From: Aplysia californica
Lineage: Eukaryota
Length of the DNA stretch: 54,056 nucleotides
NCBI RefSeq assembly: GCF_000002075.1
Contig: NW_004797687.1
Coordinates: 379,490 to 433,545, forward strand
Reading direction: 5' to 3'
Each line of letters starts with the position of its first letter. Within the stretch, counting starts at the first letter, position 1. Below, one piece after another: positions 660 to 52,026 of the stretch. Position numbers and translations under genes: made by a program. Under the pieces are notes generated by a model that saw only the letters and a program-made list of their open reading frames with translations, was not told the DNA's origin and ran no database searches.

Positions 660-3765
<3,106 letters not shown>

Positions 3766-4192
3766 ATATAGATATTTCACACACACAAAAAAATGACATT
3801 GAATGTTTTTTCAACAGCAGAAACACTTGGAGCATGCCCGTGGCTCAATTTCTCTGATATTGAATTAAGCCCACGCATGCATTTATACANNNNNNNNNNN
3901 NNNNNNNNNNNNNNNNNNNNNNNNNNNNNNNNNNNNNNNNNNNNNNNNNNNNNNNNNNNNNNNNNNNNNNNNNNNNNNNNNNNNNNNNNCCCTCTATCAT
4001 CCCCAAAAATAGGGATTTCCCCCCTTCGCTTACAAACTGATTCACGTCCCCCTACCCCTCCTTTTGCGGTGAGGATGGTTTCTCAACTTTCGTAGCGCCT
4101 TTTATGGTAAAATAATTTTAAAGTTCTTCGTATCAGAGTAAAACTAGACAATCACCAGACTTCGTCACTCGTTAAAGATTTTTGATCCCAAG

Positions 4193-5422
4193 TTGTATTT
4201 TTCTATGTCTCCGCATGGCATCCGGTCTGTACAAATGTCGCACCACAAAAATTCACTGTCAGATTTTTTCCCATGTGTGTTCTTTTATGTCTCTGAAGGC
4301 TGTCACTCTTTGCAAATGTTGCACCACAAACTTCACACTTGTAAAGCTTTTTTCTCCAGTGTGTATTTCTTTATGTCTCAGTAGGTTATCACTTTGTGTA
4401 AACTGTTCACCACAAACTTTACACTGGAGAGGTGTTTCTTCTGAGTAAGTATTTTCCCTAACTGTAAGCCTGGGATTATCTGAATGACCAGAATCTGTTT
4501 CTTTGTACACTTTTGGCTGTGTGGTACTAGAAGGAGACTCAGAAAAATTTACAGAACCAGAAATAGACACAGCACAAGAAAAGTTGAAACCTGAATCTTT
4601 ATTCTTGACCCTAAAGCCAGAATTTGAGACATTACATTCCAGAAGAATTGGATCAGCAGAGAAAGTTGAAGTTTGGTGAGTGGATGCAACAACATCTGTG
4701 TCTGGGTTGGAACTCTGCGCCATAGACAAACCCCTTACAGTGGAGATTTGCTGCTGTAGCCTTCCAGCCTGACTCATGTGATCCTCAACGAACATGGGCT
4801 CCTCCACATCTCCCACTTGTCCTTCTGTCTTTCCCATCTCTCCAAAGTCTGGACCCTCCCATTCAGGCACTTCCTCTTTCCCAAAAGTCTCCACTTTTGG
4901 TTTCACTTCATCATCAATGTCAGGAAAATATTCAAAATGTGGTTCAGTTTTTACCATACCAATATCTGTGAAGCACTCTGGTTTCATGACTATGACAGGT
5001 TTTATCTCTTCCTCCTCCCCAAACAAATAAATAGGCTCATCTTTTACTGCGATATTTCTGTTTTCAATGTCTGGTTCATTTTTTCTCTCGACTTTGACAT
5101 CATACGGCCATTCAAAACCAGACTCTTCTTTTATCAATGGAAGATGGATGTCTTTTACTTTTACAACAGGTTTTTGTTCTTTGAGGTCAAACAAGAACAG
5201 AGAACTGCTCCTATCTTCAGAGTAATTTTCTCCACTTGTAATATCACATTTCACATCTTCCCTTAGAGCATGAGAACTAGAACTAGAATTACTTGGTGCA
5301 CCTTGAAAAACGATGCCATCAATGCTCAGATTCATGCCTTCTCCAGAGTAAAGACTATTCACAGTGTCTTCCTCGAAATTGACATTCATCAATTGTTTTT
5401 CAGAGTTGGAAATGTCAGCCAT
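4193..5422 (-). pseudogene. N-terminal part of a ZNF gene, frameshifted after finger 1 and truncated
   Basis: Near-identical to 32515-33743; frameshift in the T-run near 4348-4355 (GEKSFTSVK instead of GKKLYKCEVC); homology ends at ~4193. Confidence 0.8.
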
Positions 5423-5610
5423 TTTTATTAATTACAATGTTGACACTACCTTTGAATTTGAAGACAGCTAGATATCTAGATCTAGATCTAGATCGCTCTC
5501 AACTGTGAATGTCCAAAAGGAAACAACCTTAAATTAGGCCTACTTTCTTAAATTTTGCAAAACTGCCGCCTACTGAATCAACGACTACCATTGGTCAATT
5601 CAGAGTTTAA

Positions 5611-6759: not shown

Positions 6760-7918
6760 AGAGATATCATAAAGACCAAACAAAAAAATGAGTCAAATAC
6801 CACAGTCAAATTGGGGTCATTCTCTTTCAAACAAACTGGGACCGACCGCTATTTAACCCGATACAAAATCCCAAATGTAGAGAATGTTACGGTCAAAGCT
6901 AGAAATGTAGGTCTGTTGCTTAATGGGGGGAAAATTGGAATCTCTTTGCTTCACAACACTGCTGCAGAGACTTGACTCTATCTTCTAAACGGTTGAAATA
7001 ATTAAGCCAACTCTTGTCTTTCACAAATGGTCTATAAATAGCCCTTGGGTTCCCAATTTTGTCGTCTCTGCATTCCTTCGACGTGTTTTTATTTTATTTG
7101 TTTTTCTAGCTCAGATTTGGAAAGGGGTACTATTTTGTCTTACTGCTATTGTTGAATATCCTTCTTTTTTTTTCTTTTTTTTTGCTGCCCGGTTTATTAT
7201 ATTATTATTTTTTATACTTGCTTTGGGATTTGTTTCATAAACAAAGCTTTATTCAACTAGCGCTATTTTTGCAAAAGAAAAAAACAACGAAAGGGACCTC
7301 AAAACAAGTGACCAATCAAACTCTAGTGCCGTTTTTATTCTCCTTTTTGCGCGTAAATATTTGCCATAGACTTAGATCAGTCTATATAGTTCATATCTTT
7401 ATTCAGGCGGCTGTCTTCATATTTTGGTCGTGCATGATCGATGATCAATGAAAGATTTGAACGGGAACAATTCTTATATTTCTTTGGCATCGATACAGAC
7501 ACTCAGACACTATTATTTTATTTAATTTTGACCACTAAATAAAATCTAGCTAATTTATTACGGTTAACTATGCCCAAGAAACTTAACGCGTAGCTTTTTT
7601 GCAGGCCAGCAACCAAACAAAAATGTAATACTACAGCATTTGTCTTTGGGTTTTTTTCATTGAAATATCTTGATGTAATAATAATTAAAACAAAAAATCC
7701 TCTGTCTAGGCTCACATTGCTTTTTTGGTGAATACAGAGGATTAGCATGGGTGGTTGACGGGTGCTCTGGTGTGGTTTGTTCCTTCTTTCCTATCAAACA
7801 CCTATCGTATCTCTCCTTATTCTTCTTTTTTTATGGTAGTTACTCTTAACACCTCTAATAATTATCTTCTGGCGCTCATATGACCTTACGCAGCTGCAAG
7901 CGCCGTAAAACCTTTACT
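6760..7918. repeat. Visible part of the left inverted-repeat arm in copy A (reverse complement of 12519-13671)
   Basis: ORF 7149..7451(+) mirrors 12984..13253(-); nucleotide reverse-complement match. Confidence 0.92.
7748..7918 (+). mobile_element. I/Nimb-like LINE 3' end fragment (also 12519-12690 -, 19141-19199 -, 21719-21870 -, 40069-40240 +, 44805-44980 -)
   Basis: Terminal motif ggcgctcatatgacctta...gcgccgtaaaa followed by an A-rich tail; shared with the tail of the SINE at 10121; clade assignment is from recalled consensus. Confidence 0.55.
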
Positions 7919-14212: not shown

Positions 14213-14499
14213 TATCGATAGAAAAATTTGATTTTTGCACCGCACACTACACAATTTGCATAAAAAGGGGTAATAATTTCTTGGTTAACCATTTATCTAG
14301 CCTTGAAGGACTATGAAAGAAACATTTAGTTTACTGCATTAAGTTGTAGCTCGGAGATCTACATGTTCTTGCACAGATTCGCACAGCCTAACGAAATAGA
14401 CGACATCGGCGCAGCAAAAAATACACCGTGACGTAGGTGCTCTCTCGGACGTCCGCGCGAAATGGTCATATAGCAAGCGCTCGCCGTGATCCGTCAGTT
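14213..14499 (+). promoter_or_regulatory. Histone H1 promoter
   Basis: DRE TATCGATA 14213-14220, octamer ATTTGCAT 14254-14261, AAAATACAC (H1-box-like) ~14418, TGACGT 14429, E2F GCGCGAAA 14455-14462, TATA-like 14469, Inr TCAGTT 14494-14499. Confidence 0.7.
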
Positions 14500-14578
14500 C
14501 AGAATCAGCACTCGTTGCGAAGTGACCACTCTCTTTTTTCATTTTCCGCCCTCGTCTTCGTTCACATTTTCACTCACA

Positions 14579-15154
14579 ATGTCTGACGCTCCAGCTGCTG
14601 CCCCAGCCAAGGCTACCCCCAAGAAGAAGGCTCCCGCCAAGCCTAAAGCCCCCGCCGCTCACCCTCAGTACAAGGTGATGGTCGCTGCCGCCATCTCTGC
14701 ACTGAAGGAGCGCGGTGGCTCTTCCCGCCAGGCCATTCTCAAGTACATCATGGCCAACTACAAGGTCGGTGATAACCCCACTGCCATCAACGCTCGTCTC
14801 AAGACTGCCCTCAAGGCCGGCGTCAAGGCTGGAACCCTGAAGCAAGCTAAGGGAACTGGCGCTGCCGGCTCTTTCCGCCTGGGAGAGAAGAAAGTGGAGA
14901 AAAAACCCGCCAAGAAAGTTGCCAAGAAACCCAAGTCCCCCAAGAAGGCGGCCAAGCCCAAGAAAGCCGCTGCCAAGAAGCCAAAATCTCCCAAGAAGGC
15001 CGCCGCCAAGAAACCTGCTGCCAAAAAAGCCGCTGCCAAACCCAAGAAGGCCAAGAGCCCAGCCAAGAAAGCCGCCAAGCCCAAGGCTGCTGCCAAAAAG
15101 CCAGCGGCAAAGAAGGCTGCTGCCAAGCCCAAGAAGGCTGCTGCCAAGAAGTAA
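14579..15154 (+). CDS. H1: Histone H1 (linker histone), 191 aa, intronless
   Basis: ATG at 14579 ([11 protein letters not shown]); globular domain [30 protein letters not shown]...[10 protein letters not shown]; K/A/P-rich tail with SPKK motifs. Confidence 0.98.
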
Positions 15155-15985: not shown

Positions 15986-17796
15986 AATGTAACAGCAGAG
16001 AGGGATCAGCGAAAGGGGGGGGGGGGGGGGGGGTTCCTTACAAAGTTGACCTCAAGCTGTAAAAGTTTGGAGGGTGGGGGAAAGTGAAGATGTATTTTAG
16101 TACATGATGTGTAAAATAAGACCGCATTTCCTTAGCCTTGTTGAATAATGTAATTTGACAGTTCAGGTACATTATAATGTATGTCTTTAATAAAATTAAG
16201 TTTTTATTTTTCTTATAAAAAACAAAGATCACTGTAGATGAAAAGACGGGGGGGGGGGGGGGGGGGGATTTTCGCTGACGTCATTTGTGATCGCTCTCTT
16301 ACGTCTCTTACTAGTCTTACGTGTACCCAATATATTTTTTAAATTTACCTAATTTATTTCTCTCCTACTCCCAGTTCCACACAATAGACCTTGCTTGGTG
16401 CATTTTTAACAATCTTTATGCCAAATTGGAAGCTTCTACTTTTCTAGTTCTAGTAAGATTTTTACGTGCTTTATTTCAGTTCAACACTTTTTCAAACACT
16501 TTAGATTAAAACGTCATTTTCATTTAGGCATTGGGACCCAAAAGAACAGGAAATAATAATTTTTTTCCGTACAAAAGAAATTTTAAAAGAATATTTTATC
16601 GAAATGGGATCGCTTACTCAGGTCTTCCCTTAAGTTTTTTCCTGGCAACTTCACTTTAATTAAATTTTTTTTTTTTAAAACGTTCTCTTTTTTAAAAAAA
16701 GTTTAGTTTTTTTTTTTTTTAATGGCTGAAACCTTAAACCAAAACGAAAAAAAAAGCTTTTCATCTAAATAGTCATTACATCGACATGCGACAAATGAGA
16801 AATACCGGTAGGCCGAAACTCGCAGTGTAAAGATTAAGAGGTGGACGATAATACATCATAATACATTATAGTGTAAAGCGCATAGAGCACGCTTTCGAGT
16901 GGGGATGCGCTATACAAAAATGCTGGGTTTTTTCGTTCTAAAAGTAAAAGTACATGTAGTAGTAGTAAATGAATCGGCAATCATTTGCTGGTCAGCCATT
17001 GGCTTTGACTTTGATTGCCTTTGGGGAGTGACCAAAAAGAAGAAGAAAAGAAAAACAAACAAAAAACCAACAGAAAATTGTTTACACACACACACATATA
17101 TATATAATGGATTGAACACACTTTACACACTCTGGTAAAAACTGTACAAGTACCTCATCATGTTTTGTCACAACGTGGTTAGCTCTACGTCATTAAAGAA
17201 ACTAGGTTGTCTTGGATATTTTACAGATTAATAATAGCTCATCTTGGCTATCATTTACTAGTCATTTATGGTTTTCATTGACCTTTGGAAGAGAATGAAG
17301 AGAAGAAATTAGATCTATGTTCATCCAGTTGAATGTATTGTTACAACTAACTACATGTAGCTATCTATCACTATCAGGAAATCGATAAATTGTCCCTCAG
17401 GACAAGTGACGACAAAAGTACACGAAGCGTGCTGACAAAATGAGTTACTTCTCAGATTCGAGGCCGATGGAAAAGTAGAGATACATCACGCATAGGTGAC
17501 GTTTTTACAATTTATAAGTTGTAGGAAACAATAAAAGGCATGTTATACTAAAAGAATCTATGGCATAAATAGAAGCTCTGCAAATTTGACCCTAATGTCG
17601 ATTTTTGGCCAATATCTCTCATAGCATCTGCGTTTGTCGCGGCCGCGATTTTGTCAATTTTTGGTCCGCGAATCGCGGCCGCTATTTTTTGCATTGAAAA
17701 AAACCCCCCACACGGCCGGGAAATAAAAAATCGAAACAAAACGGGGTTAAAAAAAACGGAAAAAAAGAGAAGAAACTGAACTTCTTTACTTACGAG

Positions 17797-18603
17797 AAGT
17801 CTGTTATAAAGACACGATTCTAAAACCCCGCTTTTTTCTCTTCTTTACCTTTGTAAATAAAATACTGCTATAGCGCAGTCAGACAAACATGCGAGTCGTT
17901 TATAGCGGAATATAACTGCTGCTGTGCACAGTGCATGGGCCAATTATACATAAAGTAAAACCTCGCCAGTTGAGAAAGTTGTTGGTGATCTAGCGAAACA
18001 AAGAATGGGAGAGCCCATGTGTGCCAACAATGAAGGCCAGAGCGGCTGAGTGGGTAGGATGTGGCATGCGCAAACAAGACGAAAGCATCGCGTGATAGGC
18101 CAGCGTAAGCCTAGTTTAGATTATCAAGGCCTACCATGCCTCTCACTTTTCCGATGCGGGGATGGAGAGGTCACAGTGCTGTGACTACTGTGAGTGATGG
18201 ATTGAGCGAATGTATGACGTGCGCAAGCAGACAGAGGGCACCACAGGGTGGGGTGGGGCGGGGGAAAACCACAAATTCTGTGGGGAAAACACAGTGGGCG
18301 AGTTAGCCCAGAGCCGAGGATACCGGAACTAAAGATTTATTTTGGTAGCCTCGCCCAGAGCCCTTTCTTTCTGATCGCCAACGCCGAGCTGTCAGTTCAC
18401 ATCGCTAGATTTAGCGCTCATGTTGAAACAAAATCATCATCAGGGGAGATAGCAAAAGGAAATAAACAGAACACCAAACTCATAGATTAGGCCTACTTTA
18501 CAGTTTCCCTTGAATTTATTACTAGATCCCTTATAGCGAGAATCCTGCTATAACGGACATTTTGCTCCGGTCCCCTCCCTCTCGTTATAACAGGATTCCA
18601 CTG
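17797..18603. mobile_element. pogo/Tigger-like MITE, same family as 11552, left end missing
   Basis: Colinear with 11592-12389; right TIR CTCGTTATAACAGGATTCCACTG|TA. Confidence 0.8.
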
Positions 18604-30902: not shown

Positions 30903-33743
30903 TCACACTTGCAAGGTTTTTCTCCAGTGTTTTCTCGTCATATGTTCTACTCGGTGAGAAGCTCTTGTAAATCTTTTGCCACAAATTTCACACTGGTATG
31001 GTTTTTCTCCTGTGTGTGTTATTTTATGTCTTACTAGACTTCCACTTCTACTAAACGTTTTACCACAAATTTCGCACTTGAAAGGTTTTTCTCCTGTGTG
31101 TATTCTTTTATGCACTAAAAGGCCACTACTATGTGCAAACCTTTTACCACAAACTTCACAATTGTAAGGCTTTTCTCCTGTGTGTGTTCGTACGTGACTC
31201 TTCAAGTCACTGGCAAATAAAAACATTTTGCCACAAGCTTCACACTTGTAACCCCTTTCTCCTGTGTGTACTCTTCTTTTATGTTTCTGTAGGCAGCTAC
31301 TTTCCCTAAATGCTCTTCTACAAATTTCACATTTGTAGGGTTTTTCTCCTGTGTGAATTTTTTTGTGACTCTTCAAGGTCGAGAGATGTGAAAATGCTCC
31401 ACCACAAACTTCACACTTGTAAGGTTTTTCTTTTGTGTGTGTCCTTTTATGAACCTGTAGGCAACGACGTGTTACAAACCTTTTATCACAAACTTCACAC
31501 TTCCAAGGTTTTTCTTCCGTGTGTGTTGTCTTATGTATTAGCAGGCCACAACTGTGTGTAAACCTTTTACCACAAACTTCACACTTGTAAGGCTTTTCTC
31601 CCGTGTGTAATCTTTGGTGACTCTTCAGGACACTGGGTTGTGTAAACTTTTCACCACAAACTTCACACTTGTAAGGCCTTTCTCCTGTGTGTGCTCTTTG
31701 GTGACTCTTCAAAACACAGGCTAGTGTAAACATTGCGCCACAAACTTCACACTTAAAGCGCCTTCCTCTAACGTGTACTTTCATGTGTCTCTGCAGGACA
31801 CCCATCTGTTCAAATGTCGCACCACAAAATTCGCATTTGTAAGATTTTTTTTCCAAGTGTGTTCTTTTGTGTCTGTGAAGATTGTCACTCTCTGCAAATG
31901 TTGCACCACAAAGTTCACATTTGTGAGGTTTTTCATTGGTGTGTGCTTTTTTCAAGTGTCTGTGAAGGCTATCAATCTCTGCAAAAGTCGCACCACAATT
32001 TTCACATTGAGGTTTTTCTCCACTGTGTGTTAATTTATGTCTCAGTAGGCTATCACTTTTTGTAAACCTTTCACCACAAACTTCACACAAGTAAGGTTTT
32101 TCTTCTGTATATGTTCTTTTATGTTTCAGTAGATTACCTCTTTTTGTAAACTTTTCACCAACTTCACACTGCTTTTCCCTTGTGTGTCTTCTTTGGTGAC
32201 TCTTCAAGACACTCGCTTTTGTAAACATTACCCCACAAACTTCACACTTGTAGGGCTTTCCTCTTACGTGAGCTTTCATGTGTCTCTGCAGAACACCCAT
32301 TTGTGCAAAAGTAGCACCACAAACTTCACACTTGTAAACCTTTTTACCTGGGGGTGCCTTATGTCCCAGTAGGGTTTCACTTTTCGTAAATTTTTCACCA
32401 CAAACTTCACTCTCGTAAGGTTTTTCTCCTCTGTGTGCTCTTTGGTGACTCTTTAAGACACTGATTCGAGTAAACATAACACCACAAATTTCACACTCGT
32501 AAGACTTTTCTCCAGTGTGTATTTTTCTATGTCTCCGCATGGCACCCGTCTGTGCAAATGTCGCACCACAAAATTCACTGTCAGATTTTTCTCCCATGTG
32601 TGTTCTTTTATGTCTCTGAAGGCTGTCACTCTTTGCAAATGTTGCACCACAAACTTCACACTTGTACAGCTTTTTTCCAGTGTGTATTTCTTTATGTCTC
32701 AGTAGGTTATCACTTTGTGTAAACTGTTCACCACAAACTTTACACTGGAGAGGTGTTTCTTCTGAGTAAGTATTTTCCCTAACTGTAAGCCTGGGATTAT
32801 CTGAATGACCAGAATCTGTTTCTTTGTACACTTTTGGCTGTGTGGTACTAGAAGGAGACTCAGAAAAATTTACAGAACCAGAAATAGACACAGCACAAGA
32901 AAAGTTGAAACCTGAATCTTTATTCTTGACCCTAAAGCCAGAATTTGAGACATTACATTCCAGAAGAATTGGATCAGCAGAGAAAGTTGAAGTTTGGTGA
33001 GTGGATGCAACAACATCTGTGTCTGGGTTGGAACTCTGCGCCATAGACAAACCCCTTTCAGTGGAGATTTGCTGCTGTAGCCTTCCAGCCTGACTCATGT
33101 GATCCTCAACGAACATGGGCTCCTCCACATCTCCCACTTGTCCTTCTGTCTTTCCCATCTCTCCAAAGTCTGGACCCTCCCATTCAGGCACTTCCTCTTT
33201 CCCAAAAGTCTCCACTTTTGGTTTCACTTCATCATCAATGTCAGGAAAATATTCAAAATGTGGTTCAGTTTTTACCATACCAATATCTGTGAAGCACTCT
33301 GGTTTCATGACTATGACAGGTTTTATCTCTTCCTCCTCCCCAAACAAATAAATAGGCTCATCTTTTACTGCGAAACTTCCGTTTTCAATGTCTGGTTCGT
33401 TTTTTCCCTCGACTTTGACATCATACGGCCATTCAAAACCAGACTCTTCTTTTATCAATGGAAGATGGACGTCTTTTACTTTTACAACAGGTTTTTGTTC
33501 TTTGAGGTCAAACAAGAACAGAGAACTGCTCCTATCTTCAGAGTAATTTTCTCCACTTGTAATGTCATGTTTCACATCTTCCCTTAGAGCATGAGAACTA
33601 GAACTAGAATTACTTGGTGCACCTTGAAAAACGATGCCATCAATGCTCAGATTCATGCCTTCTCCAGAAAAAAGACTATTCACAGTGTCTTCCTCGAAAT
33701 TGACATTCATCATTTGTTTTTCAGAGTTGGAAATGTCAGCCAT
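30903..33743 (-). CDS. Tandem C2H2 (Kruppel-type) zinc-finger protein, 946 aa, 22 finger units (~19 canonical), ~330-aa acidic N-terminus
   Basis: Uninterrupted ORF, AAAATGG start context, repeated CxxC...HxxxH with TGEKP linkers; upstream exons cannot be excluded. Confidence 0.93.
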   Translation of the reverse strand: MADISNSEKQMMNVNFEEDTVNSLFSGEGMNLSIDGIVFQGAPSNSSSSSHALREDVKHDITSGENYSEDRSSSLFLFDLKEQKPVVKVKDVHLPLIKEESGFEWPYDVKVEGKNEPDIENGSFAVKDEPIYLFGEEEEIKPVIVMKPECFTDIGMVKTEPHFEYFPDIDDEVKPKVETFGKEEVPEWEGPDFGEMGKTEGQVGDVEEPMFVEDHMSQAGRLQQQISTERGLSMAQSSNPDTDVVASTHQTSTFSADPILLECNVSNSGFRVKNKDSGFNFSCAVSISGSVNFSESPSSTTQPKVYKETDSGHSDNPRLTVRENTYSEETPLQCKVCGEQFTQSDNLLRHKEIHTGKKLYKCEVCGATFAKSDSLQRHKRTHMGEKSDSEFCGATFAQTGAMRRHRKIHTGEKSYECEICGVMFTRISVLKSHQRAHRGEKPYESEVCGEKFTKSETLLGHKAPPGKKVYKCEVCGATFAQMGVLQRHMKAHVRGKPYKCEVCGVMFTKASVLKSHQRRHTREKQCEVGEKFTKRGNLLKHKRTYTEEKPYLCEVCGERFTKSDSLLRHKLTHSGEKPQCENCGATFAEIDSLHRHLKKAHTNEKPHKCELCGATFAESDNLHRHKRTHLEKKSYKCEFCGATFEQMGVLQRHMKVHVRGRRFKCEVCGAMFTLACVLKSHQRAHTGERPYKCEVCGEKFTQPSVLKSHQRLHTGEKPYKCEVCGKRFTHSCGLLIHKTTHTEEKPWKCEVCDKRFVTRRCLQVHKRTHTKEKPYKCEVCGGAFSHLSTLKSHKKIHTGEKPYKCEICRRAFRESSCLQKHKRRVHTGERGYKCEACGKMFLFASDLKSHVRTHTGEKPYNCEVCGKRFAHSSGLLVHKRIHTGEKPFKCEICGKTFSRSGSLVRHKITHTGEKPYQCEICGKRFTRASHRVEHMTRKHWRKTLQV

Positions 33744-36700
33744 TTTTATTAATTACAATGTTGACACTACCTTTGAATTTGAAGACAGCTAGATATCTAG
33801 ATCTAGATCTAGATCGCTCTCAACTGTGAATGTCCAAAAGGAAACAACCTTAAATTAGGCCTACTTTCTTAAATTTTGCAAAACTGCCGCCTACTGAATC
33901 AACGACTACCATTGGTCAATTCAGAGTTTAAGGACGTTATTCACAAATTCCACAAGCTTGTAGATCTACAACAATTTAAATTTAAGTCCTAGATCTAGCC
34001 TCTAGACTCTCACTAGATCTAGACCGAGGATTCTAGGCCCGACTAGATCCAGATCTAGATTAGTTTGGCACTGTCACCTCAGTGAAAGTTTAGCTTTATG
34101 GGATCTTAGTGACCCTTCTCTACTTCTACACTGCACCAAATTGAAAGTAAAATTATATATATATCTATGATGGCAAGTTGAGACTGAGTCCTTTACCAGT
34201 TTTTCCAGGTTTTAACACACTAGATCTAGATCTAGACATTTATTATATCTAGAGATCTAGATCTAGATATCTAGATCTATCAGATCACAAACTGCCCCCC
34301 AAGTGTCCCGGTATTAATTACTTGGAACAATTACAAAATTATTATTGATTGAATCATAATCAAACATCAGCACACATGAACTCCTCCAAACTCTCCAAAC
34401 TTTGCACAGTAATATTCTGATCAGCAAATAAACATTTCAATGAGGATAAACCGACAAAATATTCATTTCGTGCTCCAAATTGGACAGTGCAGAATGTAGT
34501 ATGAGGATAGAGATCACCCATTGATTTTGTAAACAAAGAACTGATGAGCCGCATCGATCAAACAAGTGTGACGTGTGAAATGTGAAGAGCATAGATCTAC
34601 CACAGTTTTAGCAGTTAGCTTTGTAATAGACCGGAGAAATAAGAGCTCCCAACTTACGTGTTTATCCAATTTCGCACATAATATTTTAATTTACAGTGAC
34701 AATTAATAGCTTTTACTTGCGTGAACTCCACGCAATACGATGCTAGTCAAGTGTTGCAAAATACCTTTTCTATTATCATTGTTTGTTAAAAAGGAAATTT
34801 GGAGTTGAAAGTTTATTATATAAGCAAGAAGTAAGCATTCAGTATACATTTCTAAATAGGAATAAGTGCCTATTTGCATTGCGATGCCGATCGAGTTGCG
34901 ATTAGCTTCAGTGCTAAATGAAATGCCACATTGCGTTTAGCGCCAGTGCTAAATAAAACGCTGTGTGTTATATATAAGGATTTATCTACGCTTCGTTGTT
35001 GGGAGTTCTGATAGCCGAATTAATGGAAGAAAGATGGGTAGCCCTAAAAAATTGTAACAAAAATGAAACTTATAATATATGGTTCGACAAATAAAATTGC
35101 GAGTACAATAACATATTATATTTTAAAAAATCGGCTTTCGAAATCGTAGAGGAAATTGTTTTAAAAAGCTTTAAAAGATGTCCAAAAAAAGCAAAATTTA
35201 TATTACGACCAATGGTTTATCATATAGATCTACTTGCTTATTGACACGAGAATGTTTTCATAATTTGTACGGATTTTTCCGAAAATTATGTAATTGTCAT
35301 CGGTATCAGAGCTTTTTATGTAAAAGTATGGGAAGCCAATGTATTAAGAATTCGTTTTCTCATATCCTCAGCCGGAGCTTTTAATTTTCAGTGGATGTTT
35401 GTTTACTGTGTAATTTCCCTCTAAAGAATTTCCCCTTGTGCAATTGACACAACAAGGTGTGAATGGTATAGGGCACCGAGTGCACATTTCGTATCACCGA
35501 TCTTAAATAAGTGCAACATCTTTTTGCAAAACATAGAAAGACTTAGAGTCAGTCCAGGAAGCTTAACAGGCTGAAACGCAAACTTCGATTAAGTCTCCAA
35601 GAGTTCCTATTTAGCTCCCACTGATTGTTTTATGGTCTGAAAAGAAAACTTTGCAGTCAAGCAAAGTCATAGAGACCTATAATGTCATTCGCGTTTGAGC
35701 CGAGAGCCAAGTACGTCAGGACTCAATAAAGAGAGTTGTTTTTTTTCTTGGTTGTTTTTATGTGACTTCAAAATTGCCAAGAAGCCACCATGTTCTGTTA
35801 CATTAGAAGTTGAATCTTTAAAAAAAAAAAGACATCATTGAGACCTCAAGATGTTTTGCCGTTCATTATCGTGTATCCTGTCTGAAGGCAAATTAATTTG
35901 AGCAGATCAATATTCGGAATCTGATTACCATTTTGAAAGACCATCTGCATGTTGAAGGGCCACAGTACATATATTATGGACCACAGTACCCGAAAAAGAA
36001 AAACTGATGGGATGCAAGAAAAAGTACGGAATATTACATGTGAATTATAATTAATTAATATACGGAATCACACACAATGGGCCTGCCAGTGTCAGTAACA
36101 TGTAGGCTACATGATGTATTCGGTTTTGATGGAAACACGCTCTCACATAACGCATTTATTATTTTTTTAAATTAAAAGGTAGGAGCACCATCAAATTAAA
36201 TTATATTGACATTACGATAAACACAAAAAATAGAAAACATACCGGTATCAGAACAGTAACAAAAAAAAAAGAAAATAACCCACCAGCAAATTAAAACACA
36301 ACAAAGAGAGAAAAATAAAACAGCCATATATATATAAATAATATGTTATGTTGTACAAGACTTTTTTTCACATGAAAATAACAAATGAACGTGGGGTCAA
36401 CAAGTACATGTAAGAAAGAGAAGAAGTGAAATGGGGGTGAAAATAAACCTTCTTTCTAAAAGTAAGTAAAGAAGTTCAGTTTCTTTTTTTTTTTTCGTTT
36501 TTTTTAAACCCCGTTTTTTTTTTCGATTTTAATGCAAAAAATAGCGGCCGCGATTCGCGGACCAAAAAATGACAAAATCGCGGCCGCGACAAACGCAGAT
36601 GCTATGAGAGATATTGGCCAAAAATCGACATTAGGGTCAAATTTGTAGAGCTTCTATTTGTGCCATAGATTCTTTTACATGGTATTTGTGAACGGTTCCT

Positions 36701-37600: not shown

Positions 37601-38176
37601 TTACTTCTTGGCAGCAGCCTTCTTGGGCTTGGCAGCAGCCTTCTTTGCCGCTGGCTTTTTGGCAGCAGCCTTGGGCTTGGCGGCTTTCTTGGCAGGGCTC
37701 TTGGTCTTCTTGGGTTTGGCAGCGGCTTTTTTGGCAGCAGGTTTCTTGGCGGCGGCCTTCTTGGGAGATTTTGGCTTCTTGGCAGCGGCTTTCTTGGGCT
37801 TGGCCGCCTTCTTGGGGGACTTGGGTTTCTTGGCAACTTTCTTGGCGGGTTTTTTCTCCACTTTCTTCTCTCCCAAACGGAAAGAGCCGGCAGCGCCAGT
37901 TCCCTTAGCTTGCTTCAGGGTTCCAGACTTGACGCCGGCCTTGAGGGCAGTCTTGAGACGAGCGTTGATGGCAGTGGGGTTATCACCGACCTTGTAGTTG
38001 GCCATGATGTACTTGAGGATGGCCTGGCGGGAAGAGCCACCGCGCTCCTTCAGTGCAGAGATGGCGGCAGCGACCATCACCTTGTACTGAGGGTGAGCGG
38101 CGGGGGCTTTAGGCTTGGCGGGAGCCTTCTTCTTGGGGGTAGCCTTGGCTGGGGCAGCAGCTGGAGCGTCAGACAT
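37601..38176 (-). CDS. H1: Histone H1, 191 aa
   Basis: Intact ORF; differs from the 14579 copy at two residues (VKSG, KKTKS). Confidence 0.98.
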
Positions 38177-38255
38177 TGTGAGTGAAAATGTGAACGAAGA
38201 CGAGGGCGGAAAATGAAAAAAGAGAGTGGTCACTTCGCAACGAGTGCTGATTCTG

Positions 38256-38544
38256 AACTGACAGATCACGGCGAGCGCTTGCTATATGACCATTTCGCGC
38301 GGACGTCCGAGAGAGCACCTACGTCACGATATTTTTTTTTTGCTGCGCCGATGTCGTCTATTTCGTTCGGCTGTGCGAATCTGTGCAAGAACATGTAGAT
38401 CTCCGAGCTACAACTTAATGCAGTTAACTGAATGTTTCGTTCGTAGTCATTCAAGGCTAGATAAATGGTTAACCAAGAAATTGTTACCCCTTTTTATGCA
38501 AATTGTGTAGTGTGCGGTGCAAAAATCAAATTTTTCTATCGATA
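38256..38544 (-). promoter_or_regulatory. Histone H1 promoter
   Basis: E2F TTTCGCGC 38293-38300, ATGCAAAT ~38497, TATCGATA 38537-38544, Inr and TATA-like motifs conserved. Confidence 0.7.
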
Positions 38545-46815: not shown

Positions 46816-46894
46816 CAGAATCAGCACTCGTTGCGAAGTGACCACTCTCTTTTTTCATTTTCCGCCCTCGTCTTCGTTCACATTTTCACTCACA

Positions 46895-47471
46895 ATGTCT
46901 GACGCTCCAGCTGCTGCCCCAGCCAAGGCTACCCCCCAAGAAGAAGGCTCCCGCCAAGCCTAAAGCCCCCGCCGCTCACCCTCAGTACAAGGTGATGGTC
47001 GCTGCCGCCATCTCTGCACTGAAGGAGCGCGGTGGCTCTTCCCGCCAGGCCATCCTCAAGTACATCATGGCCAACTACAAGGTCGGTGATAACCCCACTG
47101 CCATCAACGCTCGTCTCAAGACTGCCCTCAAGGCCGGCGTCAAGGCTGGAACCCTGAAGCAAGCTAAGGGAACTGGCGCTGCCGGCTCTTTCCGCCTGGG
47201 AGAGAAGAAAGTGGAGAAAAAACCCGCCAAGAAAGTTGCCAAGAAACCCAAGTCCCCCAAGAAGGCGGCCAAGCCCAAGAAAGCCGCTGCCAAGAAGCCA
47301 AAATCTCCCAAGAAGGCCGCCGCCAAGAAACCTGCTGCCAAAAAAGCCGCTGCCAAACCCAAGAAGACCAAGAGCCCTGCCAAGAAAGCCGCCAAGCCCA
47401 AGGCTGCTGCCAAAAAGCCAGCAGCAAAGAAGGCTGCTGCCAAGCCCAAGAAGGCCGCTGCCAAGAAGTAA
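46895..47471 (+). pseudogene. H1: Histone H1 with +1 frameshift (C6 instead of C5 at 46932-46937); real gene if this is a base-call error
   Basis: ATG 46895 to TAA 47471 spans 577 nt against 576 in the intact copies; otherwise intact. Confidence 0.85.
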
Positions 47472-47524: not shown

Positions 47525-50217
47525 ACCCCCCATTCGTCCAGATGGGTTGAATCTTCGATCCGAGTTGAAACCATTTCTTGATCATCTTAATGCTGCTCTA
47601 TACTAGTACTAGTACGCGATCTACCTTTCTTTATCTGCCCTGAAACCTTTCCTAGTCTTTTCCATTTCCTGATCTTACGTTAATTATAGGCCTACTTCAC
47701 AGTTTACTACATGGCCAGTGACCGACTTCCATAGCCATGGCTGCCCGTGAGGGCAAATTTAAGAAAAAATAGTCGACTGAAACCACGTTTAATGCGTCCA
47801 GCGCGCTCATGTCATGATGTGGTACACATCACATCATGTATACAGTAGTATAGATCTTGCTCTATGCCAGTTTTGCGAGCACCGTAAAAAACTTGCGCCC
47901 CCCCCCCCCCCCCAAAAAAAAAAGTTTCTCGGGAAAGAAAAGAGACCGAGCCGAGAGTCGATGGAACCCCCGACAGTCGGTTGACGAAAGAGGAACCGTT
48001 CACAATTTCAATTAGATCTAGATCTAGTCGCTTTTGCACAAGTGGGCTGTCCCGACAAATGCTGTTTTGTGAAAGTCAAAGGCGAAGTTATTGCCTCTTG
48101 TTCAGGTTCTTTAAAAGACAAGGAGTTTTCTCTCTACAGACTCTACTATAACTATAACAAAACAAATACAGTGGAACAAACTTATCTGCTTTTAGTTTTT
48201 AAAGAGGTAGCCTACATGTAGTGCAATACTCACCCACTTTTGGTGTAAAGTAGAACAGTACTTTTGGACACCCCCCGAAATCTGGGTTAGCCCGCTTGTC
48301 CTTAAAAAAAAAAGCAATCAAATGTAACAGCAGAGAGGGATCAGCGAAAGGGGGGGGGGGGGGGGGGGCTCCTTACAAAGTTGACCTCAAGCTGTAAAAG
48401 TTTGGAGGGTGGGGGAAAGTGAAGATGTATTTTAGTACATGATGTGTAAAATAAGACCGCATTTCCTTAGCCTTGTTGAATAATGTAATTTGACAGTTCA
48501 GGTACATTATAATGTATGTCTTTAATAAAATTAAGTTTTTATTTTTCTAATAAAAAACAAAGATCACTGTAGATGAAAAGACGGGGGGGGGGGGGGGGGG
48601 GGAAATTACGCTGACGTCATTTGTGATCGCTCTCTTACGTCTCTTACTAGTCTTACGTGTACCCAATATATTTTTTTAATTTACCTAATTTATTTCTCTC
48701 CTACTCCCAGTTCCACACAATAGACCTTGCTTGGTGCATTTTTAACAATCTTTATGCCAAATTGGAAGCTTCTACTTTTCTAGTTCTAGTAAGATTTTTA
48801 CGTGCTTTATTTCAGTTCAACTCTTCAACACTTTCTTCAAACACTTTAGATTATAACGTCATTTTCATTTAGGCATTGTGACCCAAAAGAACAGGAAATA
48901 ATTTTTTTTTTCCCGTACAAAAGACATTTTAAAAGAATTTTATCGAAATGGGATCGCTTACTCAGGTCTTCCCTTAAGTTTTTCCTGGCAACTTCACTTT
49001 AATTAAATTTATTTTTTTAAAAACGTTCTCTTTTTTTTTTTTTAAAGTTTAGATGTTTTTTTTAAATGGCTGAAACCTTAAACCAAAACGAAAAAAAAAA
49101 AAAAAAGCTTTTCATCTAAATAGTCATTACATCGACATGCGACAAATGAGAAATACCGGTAAGTGTAGAATTCTGTGGCCGAAACTCGCAGTGTAAAGAT
49201 TAAGAGGTGGACGATAATACATCATAATACATGTATAGTGTAAAGCGCATAGAGCACGCTTTCGAGTGGGGATGCGCTATACAAAAATGCTGGGTTTTTT
49301 CGTTCTAAAAGTAAAAGTACATGTAGTAGTAGTAAATGAATCGGCAATCATTTGCTGGTCAGCCATTGGCTTTGACTTTGATTGCCNNNNNNNNNNNNNN
49401 NNNNNNNNNNNNNNNNNNNNNNNNNNNNNNNNNNNNNNNNNNNNNNNNNNNNNNNNNNNNNNNNNNNNNNNNNNNNNNNNNNNNNNNNNNNNNNNNNNNN
49501 NNNNNNNNNNNNNNNNNNNNNNNNNNNNNNNNNNNNNNNNNNNNACACTCTGGTAAAAACTGTACAAGTAGGCCTACCTCATCATGTTTTGTCCCAACGT
49601 GGTTAGCTCTACGTCATTAAAGAAACTAGGTTGTCTTGGATATTTTACAGATTAATAATAGCTCATCTTGGCTATCATTTACTAGTCATTTATGGTTTTC
49701 ATTGACCTTTGGAAGAGAATGAAGAGAAGAAATTAGATCTATGTTCATCCAGTTGAATGTATTGTTACAACTAACTACATGTAGCTATCTATCACTATCA
49801 GGAAATCGATAAATTGTCCCTCAGGACAAGTGACGACAAAAGTACACGAAGCGTGCTGACAAAATGAGTTACTTCTCAGATTCGAGGCCGATGGAAAAGT
49901 AGAAATACATTACGCATAGGTGACGTTTTTACAATTTATAAGTTGTAGGAAATAATAAAAGGCATGTTATACTAAAAGAATCTATGGCATAAATAGAAGC
50001 TCTGCAAATTTGACCCTAATGTCGATTTTTGGCCAATATCTCTCATAGCATCTGCGTTTGTCGCGGCCGCGATTTTGTCAATTTTTGGTCCGCGAATCGC
50101 GGCCGCTATTTTTTGCATTGAAAAAAACCCACACGGCCGGGAAATAAAAAATCGAAACAAAACGGGGTTAAAAAAAACGGAAAAAAAGAAAAGAAACTGA
50201 ACTTCTTTACTTACGAG

Positions 50218-51045
50218 AAGTCTGTTATAAAGACACGATTCTAAAACCCCGCTTTTTTCTCTTCTTTACCTTTGTAAATAAAATACTGCTATAGCGCAGT
50301 CAGACAAACATGCGAGTCGTTTATAGCGGAATATAACTGCTGCTGTGCACAGTGCATGGGCCAATTATACATAAAGTAAAACCTCACCAGTTGAGAAAGT
50401 TGTTGGTGATCTAGCGAAACAAAGAATGGGAGAGCCCATGTGTGCCAACAATGAAGGCCAGAGCGGCTGAGTGGGTAGGATGTGGCATGCGCAAACAAGA
50501 CGAAAGCATCGCGTGATAGGCCAGCGTAAGCCTAGTTTAGATTATCAAGGCCTACCATGCCTCTCACTTTTCCGATGCGGGGATGGAGAGGTCACAGTGC
50601 TGTGACTACTGTGAGTGATGGATTGAGCGAATGTATGACGTGCGCAAGCAGACAGAGGGCACCACAGGGTGGGGTGGGGCGGGGGAAAACCACAGAATTC
50701 TACACTTAAGTGTAGAATTCTGTGGGGAAAACACAGTGGGCGAGTTAGCCCAGAGCCCTTTCTTTCTGATCGCCAACGCCGAGCTGTCAGTTCACATCGC
50801 TAGATTTAGCGCAAGAGAAGGAAACCTTATTCGATTTTTGATCAAGTAAGACCTAGAGGTCATGTTGAAACAAAATCATCATCAGGGGAGATAGCAAAAG
50901 GAAATAAACAGAACTCCAAACTCATAGATTAGGCCTACTTTACAGTTTCCCTTGAATTTATTACTGGATCCCTTATAGCGAGAATCCTGCTATAACGGAC
51001 ATTTTGCTCCGGTCCTCTCCTTCTCGTTATAACAGGATTCCACTG
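50218..51045. mobile_element. pogo/Tigger-like MITE (duplicate of 17797-18603)
   Basis: Right TIR ...GGATTCCACTG|TA. Confidence 0.8.
50691..50724. mobile_element. 34-bp perfect palindrome with 8-bp TSD, probable P-superfamily excision footprint
   Basis: GGGAAAAC|CACAGAATTCTACACTT AAGTGTAGAATTCTGTG|GGGAAAAC. Confidence 0.7.
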
Positions 51046-52026
51046 TATTAGCCTGTGACTGAATCTATTAACAACATAATTTCCAAAGGTTGGGGGTTAA
51101 CAAAAACCGTGAATATATTTTATATAATATAGAAATTTGGCCCTTGTTGCTAGATCAAAATTTAAATGTTCTTCTTCTAATTCTGGGTCCCCATGGTTTT
51201 ATGCACCCCGCATAATTTAAATAGGATCGTTTTTTGCATAATTTCTGAATATTTTCCTTTATCATTCTTTGCTAAAATTAACACAATCGCATAATTTCAC
51301 ATTTTTGGGCTCAGTTTGCATAATTTCATAATTATTTTTTGTGTGTGCATAAAACCATGGGGACAGATCTATGGATTGAATCAGTTGTACCTCTACATGA
51401 CCTATTTAAGAATAAGTAATGTATAGAGGTCTAGAAGAAGTTTATTTTGTCGCAGTCATACACATGAATGTAGATCGGTCGGAGGGGAGAAGCTGGTTGG
51501 TGGTAAATTTGGATTTTCCAGTCAGTGGGTCAACGGTACATTTCTCAATTTCAGTGTCAAAGTCCATTGCCCGTTCACTATTTGTTTTTTTAGTAAAGTT
51601 TTACGGCGCTCGCATACAATACATAAAAGTCATATGAGCGCCAAGGGGTGGATGTCAACAGAGAAGCCCAAACGGGGAATCAGGCTTACTCTGCGCATAT
51701 CATGATCTCTCTAGCCTCAACAGCACAAGTCTGCTTCGAATATCAAGGCACCTCGGAAAAAGCAGTTCACAAATGAGTGACGAACATACAGAAGAAGTAG
51801 AAAAAAATGACGATAGTAAGGATGAGGAAAGAAAACCATCCACTGTCCTCCCTTCATCATTTCTACAGGGCATGGGTAGTGGCAGTAGTCGATACTCACT
51901 GTCCAATTATCGAGTACTCTATCGAGTACTCTATCGAGTTCTCTATCGACTACGGTTTCGGTAATACAGCAACAAAGGTCAATTTTACCAAACAGTTCAC
52001 TTTTCTCTAATTTTGAGCAACTTAAA

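What the first reader, a model, noticed from the sequence alone, without database searches (positions are those of the whole stretch)
50683..50732. 17+17-bp perfect palindrome with 8-bp TSD: P-element-type excision footprint
Seen: CACAGAATTCTACACTT|AAGTGTAGAATTCTGTG flanked by GGGAAAAC on both sides. The duplicate (18270-18282) keeps only 13 bp between the same repeats. Known: P-element transposase makes 8-bp TSDs and a 17-nt staggered cut, so donor sites typically retain ~15-17 bp of each TIR, and P-superfamily ends begin CA. Inference: evidence of recent P-like (THAP9-type) cut-and-paste activity with Drosophila-like chemistry in a non-insect genome.
Basis: partly seen in the sequence, partly recalled or inferred. 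Interest (0 to 1): 0.7.

Follow-up and report, generated by a model that had tools for sequence, protein, structure and literature searches.

The report
P-transposon exit scar, 18-base cut
This 34-base palindrome between two identical 8-base repeats is made of the two tips of a P-element-type jumping gene found in the same animal genome; it is likely the scar left when that element cut itself out, and about 600 similar scars suggest its enzyme likely cuts 18 bases inside each end rather than the 17 known from fruit flies.

Summary
Observation confirmed. The 17-mer occurs 1,425 times in G000. It is the tip of a 23-bp terminal inverted repeat (TIR) on 1.2-5-kb elements with 8-bp target duplications. 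One 4,955-bp copy encodes an intact P/THAP9-type transposase. About 607 short remnants keep an intact 17-mer arm. 61 of 74 checked have exact 8-bp duplications, and only 21 of 732 matches reach nt 19. So this is a P-type excision scar.

The '17+17' reading is probably off by one. An 18-nt overhang predicts exactly the 33-, 34- and 28-bp classes seen, all as microhomology joins; 17 nt would need mostly blunt joins. A second P family needs at least 18 nt, likely 19. In both families and in Drosophila, nt 4-7 recur inside the end at (cut depth minus 2), which may set the cut.

Cut depth is inferred, not measured. Unchecked scan notes report such scars (17-20-nt cuts) in other genomes and gave the repeat lead. 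My paper searches found no such report.

The parts
50683..50690 (+). left copy of the 8-bp target-site duplication GGGAAAAC
   Evidence: Five other copies of the host repeat align across this site without the insert and with the target-like stretch once. Contigs of runs X5 and X13 skip 42 bases (34+8) at 50681-50724; these may be other copies of the repeat.
50691..50724 (.). 34-bp palindromic scar: two tips of the 23-bp TIR, read as 18+18 nt joined over a shared TA (or 17+17 blunt)
   Evidence: the same 34-mer at 30 of the first 50 of 125 two-armed loci
50725..50732 (+). right copy of the 8-bp target-site duplication
18262..18290 (.). same insertion site in the duplicated segment: duplication + 13-bp remnant (18270-18282) + duplication
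49160..49185 (-). one-armed scar of the same family: 18 nt of TIR (49160-49177, its inner TA shared with the flank) and one target copy GCCGAAAC (49178-49185); left arm, left target copy and 1 flank base are lost
16800..16819 (+). empty (pre-insertion) form of the 49160 site in the duplicate; single GCCGAAAC at 16812-16819
50213..51050 (.). host: about 840-bp dispersed repeat with TA-flanked CAGTGGA ends (pogo/Tigger-like; label recalled) in which the scar sits; this copy lacks its left end

Best explanation
The palindrome consists of the two outer tips of a P/THAP9-superfamily DNA transposon of this genome and is likely the donor-site scar left after that element excised, its transposase likely cutting 18 nt inside each end and the host likely joining the two single-stranded tails over their terminal TA. 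Steps: (1) insertion with an 8-bp duplication (shown by sequence); (2) mobilisation by the L097-type transposase (inferred from identical ends); (3) a staggered cut that leaves identical 3' tails on the flanks (known for Drosophila P; inferred here, 18 nt about 70%); (4) microhomology-led end joining, TA:TA giving this 34-mer, TTA:ATT the commoner 33-mer and an internal TA the 28-mer (inferred).
For: Long elements: 11 of 13 end pairs have exact 8-bp duplications, 1 has one mismatch and 1 has none. Their first 60 nt match the transposase-bearing copy at 57-60 of 60 positions in 12 of 12 checked. Transposase L097:2348-7302: a THAP start exon plus an 855-aa frame with THAP, Tnp_P_element, RNaseH_N, GBD and RNaseH_C above cut-off; 6p5a at E 1e-27, with D230/D303/E531 and all 8 GTP-site residues aligned (hand count; residue list from PMC7776569). 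Remnants: exact 8-bp repeat in 61 of 74, against 0 of 74 for 7, 9 or 10 bp; 72 distinct targets; target bias G-T...A-C like the fly consensus. Sharp edge: 21 of 732 matches keep nt 19; in filler-bearing rows 61 of 100 have A at nt 18 and only 7 of those T at nt 19 (hand count). Model: n=18 yields only the 28-, 33- and 34-mers as untrimmed paired joins, seen at 41 (33-mer) and 14 (34-mer type) of 85 loci and 19 (28-mer) of 100 short rows. n=17 yields only a 22-mer (5 of 100, one not a closed scar). n=19 predicts a 36-mer seen 0 times in 21. In flies, 17+17 or 16+17 blunt joins are 2 of 114 junctions (PMC2895639 Tables 1-3 as shown; my sum).
Against: No cut was measured, and this 34-mer alone fits 17+17 equally well. 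26 of 100 short rows (13 32-mers, 13 30-mers) and two lone ends (L012, L026) stop at nt 17; 28 of 100 filler rows continue with C. So trimming or a mixed 17/18 cut is needed. The A at nt 18 in many filler rows could be templated. The fly comparison comes from Rad51 (and polymerase theta) mutants of another species. Only one intact transposase with these ends was found, and its own flanks are not a duplication. Listed rows are the first 85-100 places, not random samples.
Confidence: 0.75

Rival explanations
1. Same scar, but a 17-nt cut as in Drosophila, with the 34-, 33- and 32-mers made by joining unpaired tails after loss of 0, 1 or 2 nt, or a mixed 17/18 cut.
For: The 34-mer is exactly 17+17; 32-mers (13), 30-mers (13) and 22-mers (up to 5) among 100 short rows end at nt 17; L012 joins nt 16-17 TT directly into its target copy.
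Against: It needs 55 of 85 loci to be joins without a base pair, against 2 of 114 in flies. The 23-, 27- and 31-mers (3, 5 and 7 of 100) carry an A at nt 18 that the other arm cannot supply. Family 2 cannot be 17: 10 of 25 scars are 35-mers whose extra base is always TIR nt 18.
Confidence: 0.2
2. The 33/34-mers are themselves mobile micro-MITEs that spread by transposition.
For: Identical 33- and 34-mers stand at hundreds of unrelated targets.
Against: Junctions are heterogeneous, with templated-looking fillers and one-armed forms. The recurrent classes are those that end joining predicts. The remnants lack the 15-bp subterminal motif shared by both ends of long elements (nt 44 and 55). A 17-18-nt stagger on both ends would leave no duplex in a 34-mer (inference).
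Confidence: 0.03
3. Internal deletion of full elements by aborted gap repair or hairpin loss, independent of the cut position.
For: Two remnants keep 32 and 35 nt of one end (L199, L210), and internally deleted elements of 1.2-3.4 kb are common.
Against: Such deletions would not stop at nt 18 within a 23-bp TIR in about 97% of matches (21 of 732 reach nt 19).
Confidence: 0.02

Closest known systems
Drosophila melanogaster P element and its end-joining products at the donor site (PMC7776569: passages and section 8 read; PMC2895639: passages with Tables 1-3 read; PDB 6p5a/6pe2)
   Same: 8-bp duplication, THAP + HTH + split RNase H + GTP-binding insertion, catalytic and GTP residues, palindromic G...C target bias, TIR tips left at the donor site and joined by short microhomology or templated fillers.
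   Different: 23-bp TIR of unrelated sequence (31 bp in P); likely 18-nt rather than 17-nt tails; hundreds of natural scars retained in one assembly, where the fly data come from induced crosses; no 11-bp internal inverted repeat tested, a 15-bp subterminal motif instead.
Zebrafish Pdre2 / zfTHAP9 (PMC10983969: passages and section 6 read)
   Same: Non-insect P-like element with CA-start TIR, 8-bp duplication and internally deleted copies.
   Different: 13-bp TIR; the parts I read give no cut position; supplementary figures S5-S7 with excision sequences were not seen and may bear on it.
P-type scars in other genomes noted by this scan (AI notes, unchecked)
   Same: Short TIR-to-TIR palindromes with 7-8-bp duplications; inferred cuts of 17-20 nt.
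   Different: Other genomes and TIR families; not tested here.

Membership tests
P/THAP9 superfamily transposon | Transposase with THAP, HTH, split RNase H and GTP-binding insertion domain between the same TIRs | tested here: met
   L097:2348-7302, five Pfam families over cut-off, 6p5a E 1.1e-27
P/THAP9 superfamily transposon | Catalytic D230, D303, E531 and GTP-site D528, K385, K400, V401, S409, F443, D444, N447 | tested here: met
   All 11 align to identical residues (hand count on the alignment; list)
P/THAP9 superfamily transposon | 8-bp target-site duplication | tested here: met
   11 of 13 long pairs exact; 61 of 74 remnants exact, 0 of 74 at 7, 9 or 10 bp; not met at the transposase-bearing copy itself
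P/THAP9 superfamily transposon | Terminal inverted repeats plus subterminal transposase sites | tested here: inconclusive
   23-bp TIR met; a 15-bp motif is shared by both ends at nt 44 and 55, but binding is untested
P/THAP9 superfamily transposon | GTP-dependent cleavage and strand transfer | not testable with these tools
   Residues conserved only
Drosophila-type P excision footprint | Retained TIR ends at a sharp limit inside a longer TIR | tested here: met
   21 of 732 matches reach nt 19 of a 23-bp TIR
Drosophila-type P excision footprint | Stagger of exactly 17 nt | tested here: inconclusive
   Junction classes favour 18, but 17-ended products exist; no biochemical test
hAT superfamily (also 8-bp duplications) | hAT transposase; excision through flank hairpins with no TIR left behind (recalled) | tested here: not met
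   The cognate protein is P-type, and the remnants consist of TIR tips

The most novel reading that the evidence does not exclude
P-superfamily cut depth is not fixed at 17 nt but is written into each end: nt 4-7 recur as a direct repeat inside the end, and the inner nick falls at repeat offset + 2. Fly: offset 15, cut 17. Family 1: AGAA at offset 16, cut 18. Family 2: AGAC at offset 17, cut 19. Family 3: TAGAGA at offsets 19 and 22, predicting 21 and 24; its single scar keeps up to 23 nt of the second end. The freed 5' end of the non-transferred strand could then re-pair with the transferred strand's tip, as in the A-form duplex of the fly strand-transfer structure. Genomic scars would then map cleavage sites of unstudied P transposases from sequence alone.
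Probability: 0.45. Interest if true: 0.7.

Novelty: new variant of a known kind. Interest (0 to 1): 0.5.

Why it matters
The 17-nt stagger is described as a distinguishing feature of P transposition, cited to work on the fly enzyme, and the order and mechanism of cleavage are stated to be unknown (PMC7776569). Natural scars give an in-genome readout of the cut for a distant P transposase that has an intact gene available for testing. They yield a precise prediction: moving the internal repeat should move the nick. They also show that P activity leaves hundreds of 20-50-bp palindromes that repeat annotation could miss or misfile as tiny MITEs.

Tried and rejected
The first 30 P-type RNase H loci (plus or minus 1.5 kb) showed no family-1 end; extending 20 long-frame loci to 10 kb found L097. 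The other 63 of the 83 PF21787 hits were not extended. A DNA search with the transposase frame found one full copy and 7 partial or 75-98% matches. The count of 2,227 from the loose pattern is inflated: 35 of its first 50 loci (hand count) are a 42-48-bp scar-like piece carried inside another repeat of about 430 bp; 16 such copies were set aside before the 74-locus count. Contig laying could not resolve alleles at the window site because the host repeat is high-copy. Contig depths (about 20, 40 and 70 in X1) and the lack of cover of the transposase core in X5, X13 and X18 were not used, since contigs show neither copy number nor absence; whether the window's two copies are paralogues or alleles stays open. 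Family 3 gave one scar only. A generic scar scan of 954 kb of fetched (overlapping) DNA found no fourth family. PMC3698922 and PMC4168063 (term look-ups only) hold no 'footprint' passage. Ghanim 2019 and Majumdar 2013 are not held, so whether the repeat rule or a THAP9 cut position is stated there is unknown. No fold or complex prediction was run.

Full report
Observation. The 17-mer is far above chance in the window (3 exact matches; shuffle mean 0.17 at up to 3 mismatches) and in G000 (1,425 exact, reversed control 0). The window is largely a 32-kb-offset duplication, mostly 96-99.8% identical, with zinc-finger and histone H1-like frames (labels read from the translations). The scar lies in an 840-bp dispersed repeat. 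Five other copies of that repeat align across the site without the insert, and contigs of two other samples skip exactly 42 bases there (they may be other copies of the repeat). Scan notes call this genome a sea hare (unchecked).

The parent element. Paired 17-mers bound elements of 1.2-5.1 kb with a 23-bp TIR; 11 of 13 pairs have exact 8-bp duplications. These copies hold no long coding frame. PF21787 gave 83 matches. Of 20 loci extended to 10 kb, one (L097:2348-7302, 4,955 bp) has the same ends. It carries a THAP start exon, an intron and an 855-aa frame with five P-type Pfam domains. It matches the fly transposase 6p5a at E 1e-27, with the three catalytic and eight GTP-site residues conserved (hand count; list from PMC7776569). 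Ends of 12 non-autonomous copies match it at 57-60 of 60 nt, which argues for recent activity. Against: its own flanks are not a duplication, and it is the only full copy found.

The remnants. A pattern requiring one intact 17-mer and 8 nt of the other arm within 30 nt gave 732 matches; 125 loci match on both strands, so about 607 loci. After setting aside 16 copies carried by another repeat, 61 of 74 fetched remnants have exact 8-bp repeats (69 within one mismatch), none fits 7, 9 or 10 bp, and 72 targets are distinct. The target bias resembles the fly consensus in PMC2577343 (passages). A later set of short remnants gave 19 of 26 exact. Only 21 of the 732 matches keep TIR nt 19, although the TIR is 23 bp. 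That edge separates a cleavage scar from random internal deletion. At window 49160-49185 a one-armed remnant keeps 18 nt, sharing its inner TA with the flank, and the duplicate shows the empty site. That insertion therefore postdates the split of the two copies, whereas the 50691 insertion predates it.

Cut depth (inferred). TIR nt 18 is A, so the 34-mer reads as 17+17 or as 18+18 over a shared TA. Hand counts: of the first 85 loci, 41 are the 33-mer junction, 14 the 34-mer type, 4 the 32-mer and 3 derive from the carrier repeat (not removed). Enumerating untrimmed joins with a paired 3' end and at least 2 of the last 3 bases paired gives three results. For 18 nt it yields exactly the 28-, 33- and 34-mers. 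For 17 nt it yields only a 22-mer. For 19 nt it yields, among others, a 36-mer absent from all 21 matches. In 100 of 111 short rows the 28-mer occurs 19 times and the 22-mer 5 times (one of these is not a closed scar). In 100 of 152 filler-bearing rows, 61 have A at nt 18 and 7 of these T at nt 19 (5 carrier-derived, duplicated or nested rows not removed). In fly mutants, fully or nearly fully retained blunt joins are 2 of 114 junctions, while terminal AT and TA microhomology joins are 26 and 10 (PMC2895639, Tables 1-3 in the passages; my sums). There the commonest product under-calls the true tail by one nt, so the method gives a lower bound. Against: 13 32-mers, 13 30-mers, two lone ends and 28 filler rows that go on with C stop at nt 17; fillers may be templated; repair differs between species. 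I put 18 nt at about 70%, and 17 or a mixture at about 25%.

A second family as a check. L100, L101 and L228/L229 define another P family (39% identical transposase) with ends CATAGACCTATWATTA[A/G]CCG and exact 8-bp duplications. Of its 25 two-armed scars, 10 are 35-mers whose middle base always equals TIR nt 18, and 4 are 34-mers over GC, so 17 nt fails. Of 49 short ends, 15 stop at nt 19, none at nt 20 and one at nt 21. In L227 and L256 the C at nt 19 cannot come from the other arm; for the G/G subfamily the 35-mer is the untrimmed product of 19-nt tails. I put 19 nt at about 60%.

What may set the cut. After these depths had been inferred (note), a scan note (e1-8611539) suggested a repeated motif. 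Tested: nt 4-7 recur exactly at offset 16 in family 1 and offset 17 in family 2, and nt 3-8 at offsets 19 and 22 in the two ends of family 3 (L103; one L108 end is irregular). In the fly end printed in PMC11368186 (passage), GATG recurs as GGTG at offset 15, the best offset of those I checked by hand (13, 15, 16) for nt 4-7, though offset 13 ties over nt 2-8. With the known cut at 17 this fixes cut = offset + 2, which both families then obey. The single family-3 scar can be read as 23 + 17 nt sharing TA, within the predicted 24 and 21, but it is low-complexity and n = 1. The fly structure has the transferred strand doubling back to pair with the 5' part of the non-transferred strand, required for transposition (PMC7776569 section 8); a direct repeat at that place would allow this pairing (inference).

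Comparison and novelty. It works like, and by protein and duplication length belongs to, the P/THAP9 superfamily; the exact 17-nt stagger is inconclusive and probably not met. Paper searches listed no report of natural non-insect P scars or of another stagger length. The library lacks most subscription papers, the primary structure paper and the human THAP9 paper were not held, Repbase/Dfam could not be checked, and no supplements were read. The scan's own unchecked notes report the same kind of scar with 17-20-nt cuts in other genomes; none matched this sequence. Verdict: a real P-type excision scar, a new variant of a known kind, interest 0.5.

Noticed in passing
L051-L065 (e.g. L051:1501-1546): A 46-bp scar-like piece with the same tips sits inside a repeat of about 430 bp, between decayed 8-bp repeats, and has been copied with it; 35 of the first 50 of 2,227 loose-pattern loci are of this kind.
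   Followed up: partly
L097:7123-7144: The transposase-bearing element carries a 22-bp scar of its own family with an exact 8-bp duplication in its left end, upstream of the THAP exon; L118 has a similar one at the same target.
   Followed up: partly
L097:2340-2347 and 7303-7310: The flanks of the only intact copy are not a duplication, as after a flanking deletion, recombination between copies or an assembly join.
   Followed up: no
L274:1404-1585: Another copy of the window's host repeat has an independent 28-bp scar of the same family a few bases from the window's site.
   Followed up: partly
L100, L101, L228/L229; L103, L108: Two further P families with exact 8-bp duplications and elements of 5.0-5.2 kb; L101 holds an 892-aa open frame. 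L106:2426 holds a family-1 34-mer beside another P transposase.
   Followed up: partly
L039: A family-1 element with a second copy of one end nested 1.9 kb inside it.
   Followed up: no
window 1828-5431, 30903-33752; 14474-15154, 37601-38281, 46842-47471: C2H2 zinc-finger frames (one copy split near N stretches, one of 949 aa) and three near-identical histone H1-like frames, one inverted, within the duplication (labels read from the translations, no family scan run).
   Followed up: no
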